Source: Podarcis tiliguerta (Eukaryota). Taken from it: DNA of 64,000 nucleotides. This document shows, in pieces, positions 42,901 to 46,800 of this stretch. The stretch lies in the NCBI GenBank assembly GCA_965153285.1, contig OZ229116.1, one strand, 5' to 3'. How positions within the stretch are numbered: the stretch's first letter is position 1; every line of letters starts with the position of its first letter. Made by a program: the position numbers.

Positions 42901-43779
42901 CAGTTGCCAGCTATGCTCCTGGAAGAATTTTGGCTTTCCCCCTAGTTTCCAAAACTGCATAAAACAGAGCTCTAGCCTCTCTTAAAGCATTTGTTTAAAT
43001 GAACAAGGCTTCCTGCAAGTAAGAGTTTTCTTCCTACGTCTCGTAAGACTAGAACCATTTTTTAAATAATAAAAAAAAAACAACCCTGAATAATTCCAGG
43101 GAAGACTCAAATGCAATGTGTACCCTGCAAATCTTTCCAACTAAAGCAACTTAGATCTACCCATAACTATGAAGGGCTGTTTTGACAAATCACAGAGCTC
43201 CACACACCGTGAAGTGTCAGGGCACATCTACACGTTTCAAAGAACATGGACTGCCTCCAAAGAACAGCTGTTCCATACAGAGTCTTCCCCACCACACACC
43301 CACAACTCAAGCTATGCCATGTCATTCTGTATGCGTTTGCACACATTGCTGGCTGCTTCTGGCAGGGAAACACTGTTGTAACAACTAGATTTATTAGACT
43401 TGCGGAGAGTTTGAAAGAAACACTAAACACGAGGGTCTGTGGGGGCAGATATGTTCCCCTTGGTGGCAGAAAAGGGGGTGGCGAATTCACGTGTTTGTGG
43501 ATACAAAATAATCAGATATCTTGGCAGTTCCCTCGCTGCAGGAAGTGAAGTTACAGGGAACCAAGCAGAGGGCCTTCTTGGCAGTGGCACCCGCCCTGTG
43601 GAATGCCCTCCCATCAGATGTCAAACAGAAAAACAATGACACCACTTTTAGAAGACATCTGAAGGCAGTCCTATATCAGGAAACTTTTCATGTACGATGC
43701 TCTGTTGTGTTTTTGTATATCCTGTTGGAAGCCACCCAGAGTGGCTGGGGCAACTGAGTCAGATGGATGGAGCACAATC

Positions 43780-43822
<43 letters not shown>

Positions 43823-46800
43823 TTGCCATATTCTGGACCCAAGTGAAGGTGCTAGTATACAAGAGTTTTTCACAGCTGAAGTCCTCTGTATGTGAAGAAG
43901 TGAGTCATACACTTTTGCCAGCCATTACAGATTTAGTTGTGCTTAGGCATTTAGCACACACTTTTGCCATGACTCAGGCATCGTAGGCCCAGGCTAACCC
44001 TCTGGGAGAAAGTCAGTGCACTCAGGGTTCATTCTGCCCTTGGTTGTCTGCAGAGTGTACCTGCTTGCTCATATCACCGACGGAGGGTTGATTGACCCTG
44101 AAGAACAGTATGAGGCAGGTGCTCCTGTTGTAATCCCATCAGTCATGACCTTTGGCAATGCTGACTGGGGCTGGTGGGATACCAGCAAAACCTGGAGTCC
44201 ACAGGTGCCCCATCCCTGTGTTTCTAAGGAAACACTTAAGCAACTGTATTTCTAGAATGGCACCGGTGTGGATGCTGGGAGCTGTGGTTCTCATTACCAA
44301 TTATCATCCAATAAGGGTCATAGTTAGCTAAACCCTGCTTCGCCCTGTATACCCAAAGGAGCATCTCTACCCCCATTGTTTAGCCTGGACACTGAGATCT
44401 AGCTCTGAGGGCCTTCTGGTGGTTCTGTGAGAAGTAAAGTTACAGGGAACCAGATGGAGGGCCTTTTTGGTAGTGGTGTCTGCCCTGTGGAATGCTCTCT
44501 GATCAGATTTCAAGGAAATAAATAACTATCCAACATTTAGAAGACATCTGAAGTCAATTGTGTATAGGGAAGTTTTTAATGTTTTATTATGTTTTATACT
44601 TGCTGGGAACCGCTCAGAGTGTGCGTGGGGTAATAATAATAATAGTAATCCTAGAAAGAATATGCAAGGGTATGTGAGGAGAAGGAAGAAGATGTGGCCA
44701 AAAATTGGAAGTTGTTAAGCCAGATGTAGAGAATACAGTGGTACCTCGGGTTACATATGCTTCAGGTTACGGACTCTGCTAACCCAGAAATACTACCTCA
44801 GGTTAAGAACTTTGCTTCAGGATGAGAATAGAAATCGTGCTCCGGCGACACGGCAGCAGCAGGAGGCCCCATTAGATAAAGTGGTGCTTCAGGTTAAGAA
44901 CAGTTTCAGGTTAAGAACAGACCTCCGGAACGAATTAAGTACTTAACCTGAGGTACCACTGTACAGACTAGTAATAACAAAATGCTACTATTTAACACAG
45001 TGATTTAATGACCATTAAGGATGCTGTGTTAAATTTCATTCAAGTCCATAGGTCTAAATCAGATGAAACACATGCATATCAGTGTAAATTGACTCATACA
45101 TTATAGCCTTTATCCAATTCAGTACGAGCCGCTGTATATACACTGAAGCATACAAAGTAGAATAAATTTGCCAGTTTGGGCTGCCTTGCAGTTCCTGCTA
45201 AAACTTTTAATAAATTCTATTCAAGCAAATAATTTAAAAATAGCTACTACTGGGATGTGACCGCTTCTAGTGAGAAAGATGGACTATCTGAATTGTTCAG
45301 TTGTACTGAATTGGTTATTTCTGTCATTCCTGGATTTCTTTCCTTCACCAAAAGCAACACAAAAATTATTTTTCTTTCTTTTTTTGCCAACCTTTAAACA
45401 AACCTTTGGGCAGCTGTTTTGCAAGACTGTAATTCTGAATGCATGATTCCATTTGCCCATTAGCAGCCCACTCAACTTAGTTTGCCAGGACTGCTCAGAA
45501 ACAACAATTTCACATGCCTTTTGAAAACCAAGACCTACCCAAAGATTCAGAGAGGGTGTGCAAGGAAGGTGTGCAGAGGTATAAAGGGAAATATTAATGG
45601 CTGGAGAGCACAAGACAGACCAGCAGATACATTATGTATTGCAGGGCTTTACAACCCAACTGATAGTTGAATTCTTAAAAGTTGCTTTGAAAAAAATGAA
45701 ACAATGCGAACATATGCAACTCCTTGCATGTGTAACAATAAATGAAGTAAGCCAAAGAATGAATGAAAATAAATATCCACACTGCCTTCGGCACAACGCT
45801 GCTTTTTTGCACTGCAACGCTTGCAATTACCACCAATTTGCTGAGCACAACCAAGACAACGTTTTGCCAGCAAACTCTTGCATTCAAGGTGATTACAATT
45901 TTGCAAAGGTGAAACGCTTATTTGAATTGCTCATTTGATTCTTTATCTAGCAATTTTTGAAAATTGACTGCGGTGGTGAATGAACTGCACAGTATGGCTG
46001 GGATACTGACCGTCAGGTTAATTTGGTAGTGTTAATGAGAGCACCACTTACTCATAACACAACCTCTCTCCTGCCATGCCTGTAATACTTTAGAGCAGGC
46101 ACAAGGAACATGTGGTCCACTGTTAGATGATGTTGGGACTCCCATTAGCCTCAGACAGCATGGCGAACTCCCGAGGATCATGGGAGTTGTAGTCCAACTA
46201 CTTCTGGGAGGACTGCAGGCTTTAACAAGGAGTTCCTTAAGATGAAGCTAGCCTAGTGACTTAACTGCTTTCTTAAGCCTCGGAGCCTCTTCAGAGAAGG
46301 AACAGAGTTGTCAAAGCAGTGGCAGAAAACAGGACGCCTCTGTTATTGACTAGGCATGATAAGAACACAACAATCTTCTGACTCTGTCGGGTCAACAGAG
46401 CAGTGTGTTTTGCCTATTGCCCTTCATCGTCAGGGTCAAAGAATTGCTTGTTCAGGTCGCAGCTCAAGACCCCCCCAAACCTGGAAATCAACTCAATGAT
46501 TCTGGGTTGGAAAATAACGGCGCTACCCATGACGCCAACCCATTAAACATTACATCACTAGACCGCCGTAAGATCAGAAGGTGCCGTTTCCAAGGCACAA
46601 TGATGACGCACAGAGTTTAGACAGTATTATGGCAACAAAGCCTTTGCAACGAAGAGTCAGAGATACACAGAAAAGAAATTAAAAATGCAAAATGAACATG
46701 GCTTCTTAAAGCAATTCATGTACATAATTTAACAGAACACGAAGAGGAGAAATAGTATAGTGCAACTGAAAATCTCACCACCCCACTCCCATTAGGATCC

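What the first reader, a model, noticed from the sequence alone, without database searches (positions are those of the whole stretch)
43521..44083. Copy-paste duplication moved the exon 5 end, its splice donor and intron 5 sequence about 24 kb into intron 2
Seen: 43521-44083 is a same-orientation copy of 19611-20293. It holds the L2 3' end, its (TAA)n tail, about 240 bp of apparently unique intron 5, the exon 5 donor and the last ~19 nt of exon 5. It is not tandem, and I see no TSD or poly(A) at its ends. A repeat masker would call it just another L2, but the shared flank shows it is a duplicate of one locus, and the exonic part identifies 19.6-20.3 kb as the source. Inference: templated insertion during break repair (from DNA or from the gene's own pre-mRNA), or a local L2 3' transduction.
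Basis: partly seen in the sequence, partly recalled or inferred. Interest (0 to 1): 0.7.

Follow-up and report, generated by a model that had tools for sequence, protein, structure and literature searches.

The report
Small gene-fragment copy inside PHLPP1 intron
About 560 bases spanning a LINE fragment, most of a short intron and the last 19 bases of an exon of the lizard PHLPP1 gene were copied once into another intron of the same gene 24 kb away; it is most likely an old, neutral repair patch of an already known kind.

Summary
Window 19611-20293 and 43522-44083 are same-strand copies. BLASTN gives 87.5% identity over 550 columns with E = 0, the strongest self-match in the window. Substitution divergence is 8.6%.

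The shared piece has four parts: the 3' end of a LINE, its (TAA)14 tail, 239 nt of intron found nowhere else in the window, and 19 nt of exon. The other three copies of this LINE in the window all stop matching at the tail.

The gene is PHLPP1 on the minus strand. The exon end encodes a motif conserved in other reptiles, so 19.6-20.3 kb is the source and the copy lies in the next-but-two intron upstream.

The copy has no poly(A), poly(A) signal, target-site duplication or flanking inverted repeats. A random retrocopy would rarely land 24 kb away in cis.

Best reading, at confidence 0.58: a single templated patch made during break repair or a replication template switch, probably DNA-templated. 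L2 3' transduction is disfavoured but not excluded.

Genome-wide uniqueness of the flank and the empty site could not be tested. This is a new member of a known kind, of modest interest.

The parts
19593..19990 (+). Source: 5'-truncated 3' fragment of an L2-like LINE (end of ORF2 plus 3' UTR), antisense to PHLPP1 and interrupted by the insert listed next
   Evidence: Aligns to 3 other family copies in the window. LINE similarity runs left to about 19592, about 19 nt beyond the copy's start. The family's ORF tail matches the C-termini of lacertid proteins carrying RVT_1 and endonuclease domains.
19638..19758 (.). Source-only 105-bp MITE-like insert (19646-19750) with its 8-bp direct repeats (19638-19645 and 19751-19758). 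It is absent from the copy, so it arrived after the duplication
   Evidence: The copy shows the uninterrupted site. No other copy of the insert occurs in the window.
19991..20033 (+). Source (TAA)14.3 tail of the LINE
   Evidence: TRF reports 43 nt at 100% matches.
20036..20274 (+). Source: 239 nt of intron between the LINE tail and the exon, including the donor GT (20274-20273 on the minus strand). It occurs in the window only here and in the copy
   Evidence: depth 1; 214 of 233 identical to the copy.
20275..20421 (-). Its last 19 nt (20293-20275) are in the duplicate
   Evidence: Its translation gives 142 proteins at E <= 0.001, the named ones PHLPP1 or PHLPP2. tblastn with reptile PHLPP1. 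The junction was read against orthologues.
19281..19511 (-). Next PHLPP1 exon (exon 6). The intron between it and the exon above is 20274-19512, 763 nt
   Evidence: Splice sites were placed by eye.
43522..43779 (+). Copy: LINE 3' fragment, starting inside the element
43780..43822 (+). Copy: (TAA)14.3 tail
   Evidence: TRF reports 43 nt at 100% matches.
43824..44064 (+). Copy of the intron flank. The position of the ancestral donor GT now reads GC, and a new GT lies 3 nt further into the former intron
44065..44083 (+). Copy of the last 19 nt of the exon (18 of 19 identical). Similarity stops abruptly at 44083/44084
46907..47107 (-).
   Evidence: tblastn gives 92.9-96.2% identity to the 6 reptile and turtle PHLPP1 proteins over 53-70 aa. 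Splice sites were placed by eye.
40782..40907 (-). PHLPP1 exon downstream of the recipient intron (exon 3). The recipient intron is 46906-40908, about 6.0 kb, with the copy near its middle

Best explanation
A single, old, non-tandem copy-and-paste event. A stretch of about 550 nt of the PHLPP1 locus was copied in the same orientation into an intron of the same gene 24 kb away, and the source stayed intact. The stretch comprised the 3' part of a LINE fragment, its (TAA)n tail, about 85% of the short intron as it then was, and the last 19 nt of the neighbouring exon.

The most likely mechanism is a templated patch. A broken or stalled DNA end in the recipient intron copied a nearby stretch and was then joined back without long homology. 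This could happen through synthesis-dependent repair or a replication template switch, in the manner of MMBIR/FoSTeS or a class 2 templated sequence insertion. I favour a DNA template in cis. An RNA template, such as the gene's own unspliced transcript or an antisense transcript, is the second choice within the same explanation.

Shown here: the duplication, its direction, its limits, the absence of retrotransposition marks, and the later MITE-like insertion in the source.

Inferred: the repair mechanism, the nature of the template, and neutrality.

The copy probably has no function. Both copies have drifted by similar amounts.
For: (1) One event. The LINE part, the flank and the exon part differ by similar amounts: 89.9%, 91.8% and 18 of 19 identical. 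Within 19611-19985, 33 sites are shared-derived against the three other family copies, 15 are source-only and 10 are copy-only.

(2) Direction. The 19 exon bases encode part of the ...AAVGDMN motif, seen in all 7 named orthologues that my pattern caught out of 12 examined. The exon lies colinear with 8 other PHLPP1 exons.

(3) No retrotransposition marks. There is no AATAAA or ATTAAA within 70 nt of either end in either orientation, no A-rich tract outside the copy, and no direct repeat at its ends.

(4) No transposon capture. No inverted repeats bracket the copy. The only pair that spans it is low-complexity and 79% complementary.

(5) No further templated pieces in the flanks. Only 12-17 nt matches turned up, with E between 0.19 and 0.82.

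(6) Proximity. Source and copy are 23.9 kb apart, on the same strand, in the same gene. A free retrocopy landing at random in a genome of about 1.5 Gb (size recalled) would fall inside one 64-kb window with a chance of about 4e-5 per event (inference). Template switching is known to prefer nearby templates (established knowledge, recalled).

(7) Class 2 templated insertions are described as lacking target-site duplications, poly(A) signals and poly(A) tracts, and they use intronic sequence as donor (PMC5110952, passages read).

(8) Not an assembly artefact. There is 8.6% substitution divergence plus indels, and the source alone carries a later insert.
Against: - The pre-insertion (empty) site is unknown, so the defining junction features of repair patches could not be examined. 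These are microhomology, microdeletion and untemplated bases.
- The left end of the copy lies inside a LINE 3' fragment and the right end lies downstream of its tail. That is exactly the layout a 5'-truncated 3' transduction would give.
- L2-clade insertions make only ~5-bp target-site duplications (PMC4245944). After ~9% divergence such a repeat could be unrecognisable, so the missing duplication is weak evidence.
- The review of templated insertions reports that experimental ones derive from RNA and come from 18 of 24 chromosomes without preference. That does not predict a nearby donor.
- The proximity argument is weakened by ascertainment.
- Genome-wide copy number of the flank is untested.
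Confidence: 0.58

Rival explanations
1. L2-type 3' transduction. The truncated LINE fragment in the short intron was transcribed on the + strand, antisense to PHLPP1. The transcript read through the (TAA)n tail for about 260 nt. A LINE reverse transcriptase then copied it into the recipient intron with 5' truncation.
For: - The layout fits: LINE 3' end, then tail, then the unique downstream flank, in the LINE's own orientation.
- The copy starts about 19 nt inside the source element, which is a 5' truncation.
- The element is a genuine LINE tail. 13 of 23 hits carry RVT_1 and 2 of those also carry endonuclease domains.
- L2-clade inserts are mostly 5'-truncated and make only ~5-bp duplications (PMC4245944), so a missing target-site duplication is tolerable.
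Against: - There is no poly(A) or poly(A) signal at the end of the carried flank.
- CR1-clade LINEs and the zebrafish L2 elements are described as 'stringent type', in which the enzyme recognises the element's own 3' tail (PMC4176376, passages). Priming 260 nt downstream of that tail is therefore not expected (inference).
- The source is a promoterless ~400-nt fragment that would need an antisense host transcript.
- A landing site 24 kb from the source is very unlikely for a free RNA (inference).
- My one literature search on this listed no paper holding the phrase '3 transduction' together with CR1 or LINE2 terms: 0 of the 15 listed, out of 36 papers found.
Confidence: 0.14
2. Homology-primed capture. 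An independent copy of the same LINE already lay at 43.5 kb. A break next to its (TAA)n tail was repaired by invading the LINE at 19.7 kb. Synthesis ran on through the tail into the flank and 19 nt of exon, and the end was then joined without homology.
For: - It would explain why the left limit of similarity lies inside LINE sequence and why there are no insertion marks.
- The 5'-most 35 nt are less alike (28 of 35, by eye) than the rest.
- Clear non-CpG shared-derived sites begin only at 19828.
- LINE copies of this family are common in the window: 5 in 64 kb.
Against: - Over the first ~115 aligned nt, divergence is about 11%. That matches the rest of the duplicate, and is lower than the 16-24% seen between independent family copies.
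- The 5' stretch is conserved across the family, so few informative sites are expected there anyway.
- The excess in the first 35 nt is marginal, and that stretch lies in CpG-rich sequence next to the later insert.
Confidence: 0.1
3. The 'unique' flank is part of a multi-copy composite repeat, or has further copies elsewhere in the genome. In that case the pair would not be a private two-locus duplication.
For: No whole-genome search was possible, and a 64-kb window is a small sample.
Against: - The flank runs without a break into 19 nt of a conserved coding exon, so it cannot have begun as a repeat consensus.
- Its depth in the window is 1.
- Its 87-aa translation found 0 proteins at E <= 0.01 among 283 candidates. 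The LINE tail, searched in the same mode, found 23. This is a weak test, because it only sees copies that were predicted as coding.
Confidence: 0.08

Closest known systems
Class 2 templated sequence insertions or polymorphisms (TSI/TSIP) described in human cells and genomes (PMC5110952, passages read)
   Same: A short stretch templated from elsewhere is inserted while the donor stays intact. There is no target-site duplication, no poly(A) signal and no poly(A) tract. Intronic sequence can serve as donor. The event must occur in the germ line to be inherited.
   Different: The described cases are attributed to RNA-derived patches from donors spread over the genome. Here the donor is 24 kb away in the same gene, which fits a DNA template better. 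The junction features that define the class could not be examined. This case is fixed in one assembly, not shown to be polymorphic.
LINE-1 3' transduction (recalled from the L1 literature; mentioned in a figure legend of PMC5110952)
   Same: A LINE 3' end travels together with its unique downstream flank, and the copy is 5'-truncated.
   Different: There is no poly(A) tail, no poly(A) signal at the end of the flank and no target-site duplication. The LINE has a microsatellite tail and belongs to the type reported to need its own 3' tail. The landing site is local.
Replication-based template switching (FoSTeS/MMBIR) giving small dispersed insertional duplications (recalled, not read here)
   Same: The template is nearby in cis, the orientation is direct, the size is a few hundred bases, and the source is unchanged.
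   Different: Microhomology at both junctions is the hallmark and cannot be scored without the empty site. No additional short templated segments were found in the flanks.

Membership tests
LINE 3' transduction (L1 type) | The LINE 3' end is followed in the copy by the unique sequence that lies downstream of the source element | tested here: met
   The flank 20036-20293 follows the tail in both loci, and 3 of 3 other family copies lack it.
LINE 3' transduction (L1 type) | A poly(A) tail at the end of the transduced segment, and a poly(A) signal shortly before that end in the source | tested here: not met
   There is no AATAAA or ATTAAA in 20230-20300 or 44020-44090, and the sequence after 44083 is not A-rich.
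LINE 3' transduction (L1 type) | A target-site duplication flanking the whole insert | tested here: inconclusive
   No direct repeat is seen at 43521/44084. A ~5-bp repeat (PMC4245944) could have decayed at ~9% divergence.
LINE 3' transduction (L1 type) | 5' truncation relative to the source element | tested here: met
   Source LINE similarity continues to about 19592, whereas the copy starts at 43522, which corresponds to 19611.
Class 2 templated sequence insertion | The insert is templated from another locus that remains intact | tested here: met
   The source exon and intron are in place and colinear with the gene.
Class 2 templated sequence insertion | No target-site duplication, no cryptic poly(A) signal and no poly(A) tract | tested here: met
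   with the caveat on short decayed duplications.
Class 2 templated sequence insertion | End-joining marks at the junctions (microhomology, microdeletion, untemplated bases) | not testable with these tools
   This needs the empty site from a related genome, and no eukaryotic genome collection was available.
MMBIR/FoSTeS insertional duplication | A template close by in cis | tested here: met
   23.9 kb apart, same strand, same gene.
MMBIR/FoSTeS insertional duplication | Microhomology at each template switch | not testable with these tools
   The empty site is unknown. Comparing source and recipient flanks shows no match beyond the breakpoints.
Interspersed repeat family that includes the flank | More than two copies of the flank | tested here: inconclusive
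   There are only two copies in the window, and the translated flank gave 0 protein hits. The whole genome was not searched.
L2 clade of LINEs (the label given to the repeat) | An ORF2 with apurinic-type endonuclease and reverse transcriptase, and a 3' end with a microsatellite tail | tested here: met
   In one search, P0124 and P0142 carry PF03372, PF14529 and PF00078, and 13 of 23 hits carry PF00078. (TAA)n-type tails are present in the source, the copy and the 30078-30123 copy, and weaker in the other two.
L2 clade of LINEs (the label given to the repeat) | Placement in the L2 clade rather than CR1, Rex1 or another clade by reverse-transcriptase phylogeny | not tested
   No reference LINE set was on hand. 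The L2 label rests on my recall of the ORF2 C-terminal motif. The small conserved 3' UTR hairpin shows no covariation.

The most novel reading that the evidence does not exclude
A LINE of the microsatellite-tailed, tail-recognising type carried its downstream flank along (a 3' transduction without poly(A)) and re-inserted 24 kb away in the same gene. In doing so it planted an antisense-derived exon end with a 5' splice site in the middle of a 6-kb PHLPP1 intron. Together with an upstream pyrimidine-rich AG, that site now frames a 33- or 37-nt pseudo-exon (44097 to 44065 or 44061, minus strand) that would interrupt the reading frame if it were ever spliced in.
Probability: 0.08. Interest if true: 0.5.

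Novelty: new member of a known kind. Interest (0 to 1): 0.27.

Why it matters
Dispersed duplicates a few hundred bases long are usually hidden from annotation. Their repeat part gets masked, here as 'one more L2', and the unique part is too short to notice. This one can be dated relative to other events: it is younger than the LINE insertion and older than the MITE-like insertion. Its direction is certain because it carries a piece of conserved exon. That makes it a clean phylogenetic marker for lacertid lizards and a good case for reading repair junctions once an empty site is found. It shows how splice sites can be seeded into introns. There is no sign that it changes PHLPP1, so its value is as an example and not as a discovery.

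Tried and rejected
- **Assembly artefact or recent tandem duplication:** rejected. There is 8.6% substitution divergence, indels and an insert found only in the source.
- **DNA-transposon capture:** no inverted repeats bracket the copy.
- **Complex multi-piece template switching:** short-word BLAST of 43250-43521 and 44084-44337 gave only 12-17 nt matches with E between 0.19 and 0.82.
- **A hidden RNA gene in the flank, such as an intronic snoRNA that might have been retroposed:** Rfam at gathering thresholds gave 2 hits in the window. Both are tRNA-like and neither lies in either copy.
- **Reverse direction (43.5 kb as source):** rejected because the exon end is conserved coding sequence.
- **A conversion-tract boundary in the LINE part:** no significant step in divergence.
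- **Pfam on the LINE tail peptides:** 0 families for 2 of 2.
- **A conserved 3' UTR stem-loop:** one small hairpin kept in 4 or 5 of 5 sequences depending on the pair, without covariation, so not informative.
- **Literature on L2/CR1 3' transduction:** one search found nothing on point. This was not an exhaustive search. PMC3157835 was seen only in a listing.
- **In-frame stop at the exon end:** early on I misread the exon end as carrying an in-frame stop. Comparison with orthologues showed the donor lies two bases earlier and is a normal GT.
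Full report
**What is there.** The window has no N. Self-BLASTN shows that 19752-20293 and 43550-44083 are copies on the same strand. Identity is 87.455% over 550 columns, with 45 mismatches, 5 gap openings and E = 0. Among 55 non-self pairs with E <= 1e-10 this is the best-scoring one.

The similarity also covers 19611-19644 against 43522-43555, where I count 28 of 35 identical positions by eye on the alignment. That piece is separated from the rest by 105 nt found only in the source (19646-19750). 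The extra stretch is bounded by an 8-bp direct repeat (19638-19645 and 19751-19758) and has 5-nt perfect inverted ends. The copy shows the uninterrupted site. This is therefore a later MITE-like insertion into the source, and it accounts for the different lengths of the two spans. No other copy of the insert is in the window.

**Anatomy of the duplicate.** From left to right on the + strand it holds four parts.

1. The 3' part of a LINE. The same family has three more copies in the window: 30078-30504 (minus), 54152-54557 (minus) and 44338-44633 (plus). Their open frame ends in a peptide that matches the C-termini of 23 predicted proteins, mostly from lacertid lizards. Of these, 13 carry RVT_1 and 2 also carry the two endonuclease domains. 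Pfam itself has no model for the tail (0 of 2). The clade name L2 rests on my recall of that C-terminal motif and on the microsatellite tail. I did not test it by phylogeny.
2. A (TAA) array of 43 nt, 14.3 units and 100% purity in both loci.
3. 239 nt (20036-20274) that occur nowhere else in the window. Self-hit depth is 1 there, against 3-4 in the LINE part. The other three family copies all lose similarity at their tails.
4. 19 nt (20275-20293), of which 18 are identical in the copy.

Similarity ends sharply on both sides. On the left, the source goes on matching the LINE family for about 19 nt more, to about 19592. The copy does not, so the left breakpoint lies inside the element.

**The gene.** I searched the exon on its own. 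I did not build or search a joined spliced model, and that step is deliberately left out.

- The 49-residue translation of 20274-20420 (minus strand) found 142 proteins at E <= 0.001 among 182 candidates. The named ones among the 120 listed are PHLPP1, with a few PHLPP2. The best identity is 98%, to a python PHLPP1.
- tblastn of six named reptile and turtle PHLPP1 proteins against the window gives nine colinear minus-strand exons for each protein.
- Orthologues read ...AAVGDM(N/H/Y)N-LQTFLLDGNF across the junction, in 7 of the 12 named proteins that my pattern caught. This places the exon end at 20275, with a normal GT donor at 20274-20273, and the next exon start at 19511.
- The source intron is thus 763 nt today (20274-19512). 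The duplicate took the first 664 of them, which was 551 of about 650 before the later insertion. It left out the last 99 nt with the acceptor.
- The copy sits near the middle of the ~6.0-kb intron between the exons at 47107-46907 and 40907-40782 (splice sites placed by eye).
- Calling these introns 2 and 5 assumes a single large first exon outside the window. No earlier exon was found at 47-64 kb. The numbering itself is unverified.

**One event, and its direction.** Divergence is even along the duplicate: 89.9% identity in the LINE body, 91.8% in the flank and 18 of 19 in the exon part. Within 19611-19985, measured against the three other family copies, 33 sites are derived and shared by source and copy, 15 are changed only in the source, 10 only in the copy, and 3 have three states.

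The two LINE parts therefore share a history that the other copies lack, and both have drifted at similar rates since. Because the last 19 nt belong to conserved coding sequence, the 20-kb locus is the source. Pooled divergence is 45 of 524 sites, giving K = 0.091. With recalled squamate rates of 0.8-2.5e-9 per site per year, this is roughly 18-57 million years, which is a rough inference only. The order of events is LINE insertion, then duplication, then MITE-like insertion.

**Mechanism.**

- The copy has no A-rich tract after either end. There is no poly(A) signal within 70 nt of either end in either orientation, and no direct repeat at its borders.
- No inverted repeats bracket it.
- Its flanks hold no further pieces templated from elsewhere in the window.
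- Neither copy holds a known RNA family.
- These features match what has been described as class 2 templated sequence insertions. Those lack target-site duplications, poly(A) signals and poly(A) tracts, show end-joining marks at the junctions, and include intronic donors (PMC5110952, passages).
- The 24-kb distance in cis, in direct orientation, is what replication template switching or synthesis-dependent repair with a nearby template would give (recalled knowledge). For a freely diffusing RNA copy it would be a coincidence of about 4e-5 per event.
- I therefore favour a DNA-templated repair patch, with an RNA-templated patch second.

**The L2 3' transduction rival.** Its strength is the layout: LINE 3' end, tail, downstream flank and 5' truncation. 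Against it:

- There is no poly(A).
- The source fragment has no promoter.
- The landing site is local.
- CR1-clade LINEs and the zebrafish L2 elements are described as 'stringent type', recognised through their own 3' tail (PMC4176376, passages). Priming 260 nt beyond the tail is therefore unexpected, although that last step is my inference.

L2-clade inserts make only ~5-bp duplications and are mostly truncated (PMC4245944, passages). The missing duplication therefore counts for little. My one search listed no paper holding the phrase '3 transduction' alongside the CR1 or LINE2 terms (0 of the 15 listed, out of 36 found), and that search was not exhaustive.

A variant in which a resident LINE at 43.5 kb primed the copying by homology has no clear support. 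The first ~115 nt diverge by about 11%, like the rest of the duplicate.

**What stayed unchecked.**

- As a weak proxy, the 87-aa translation of the flank found 0 proteins at E <= 0.01 among 283 candidates. The LINE tail found 23 in the same search mode.
- Supplementary files of papers were not consulted.
- No sequence here looked human.

**Verdict.** The thing itself is a small, old, probably neutral templated duplication, which makes it a new example of a known kind.

Noticed in passing
window 19638-19758: A 105-bp insert (19646-19750) with an 8-bp direct repeat and 5-nt perfect inverted ends, present in the source and absent from the copy. It looks like a small hAT-type MITE (type recalled, not tested). 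The copy serves as its empty site.
   Followed up: partly
window 19991-20033 and 43780-43822: Both (TAA)n arrays are exactly 43 nt, 14.3 units and 100% pure, although the surrounding sequence differs by about 9%. This may be coincidence or a length equilibrium.
   Followed up: no
window 44061-44097 (minus strand): In the copy the ancestral donor GT has become GC, and a new CAG|GT lies 3 nt further on. An upstream pyrimidine-rich AG would frame a 33- or 37-nt pseudo-exon in the PHLPP1 intron that would break the reading frame. There are no expression data, so this is speculative.
   Followed up: partly
window 142-496, 2228-2578, 3530-3884, 37959-38314, 48085-48459, 50115-50470, 52152-52493, 61167-61505: A ~356-bp interspersed family, probably a SINE, with at least 8 copies at 73-94% identity. 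It accounts for most of the window's self-similarity.
   Followed up: no
window 59627-59685 (-) and 33217-33273 (+): Two partial tRNA-like matches (35.6 and 34.6 bits, model positions 8-63 and 9-63 of 71). They are more likely tRNA-derived repeat heads than tRNA genes.
   Followed up: no
window 44734-44967 and 55680-55912: A pair of 234-nt repeats at 92% identity with internal inverted repeats (20-25-nt arms, 84-95% complementary). They are MITE-like and lie about 650 nt from the copy.
   Followed up: no
proteins P0128, P0129, P0130, P0132, P0137, P0138, P0140, P0141, P0143: Several predicted squamate host proteins (LLGL2, ACSS3, a nitric oxide synthase, a ZP-domain protein and others) match the LINE tail peptide. 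This suggests gene models that have absorbed LINE fragments.
   Followed up: no
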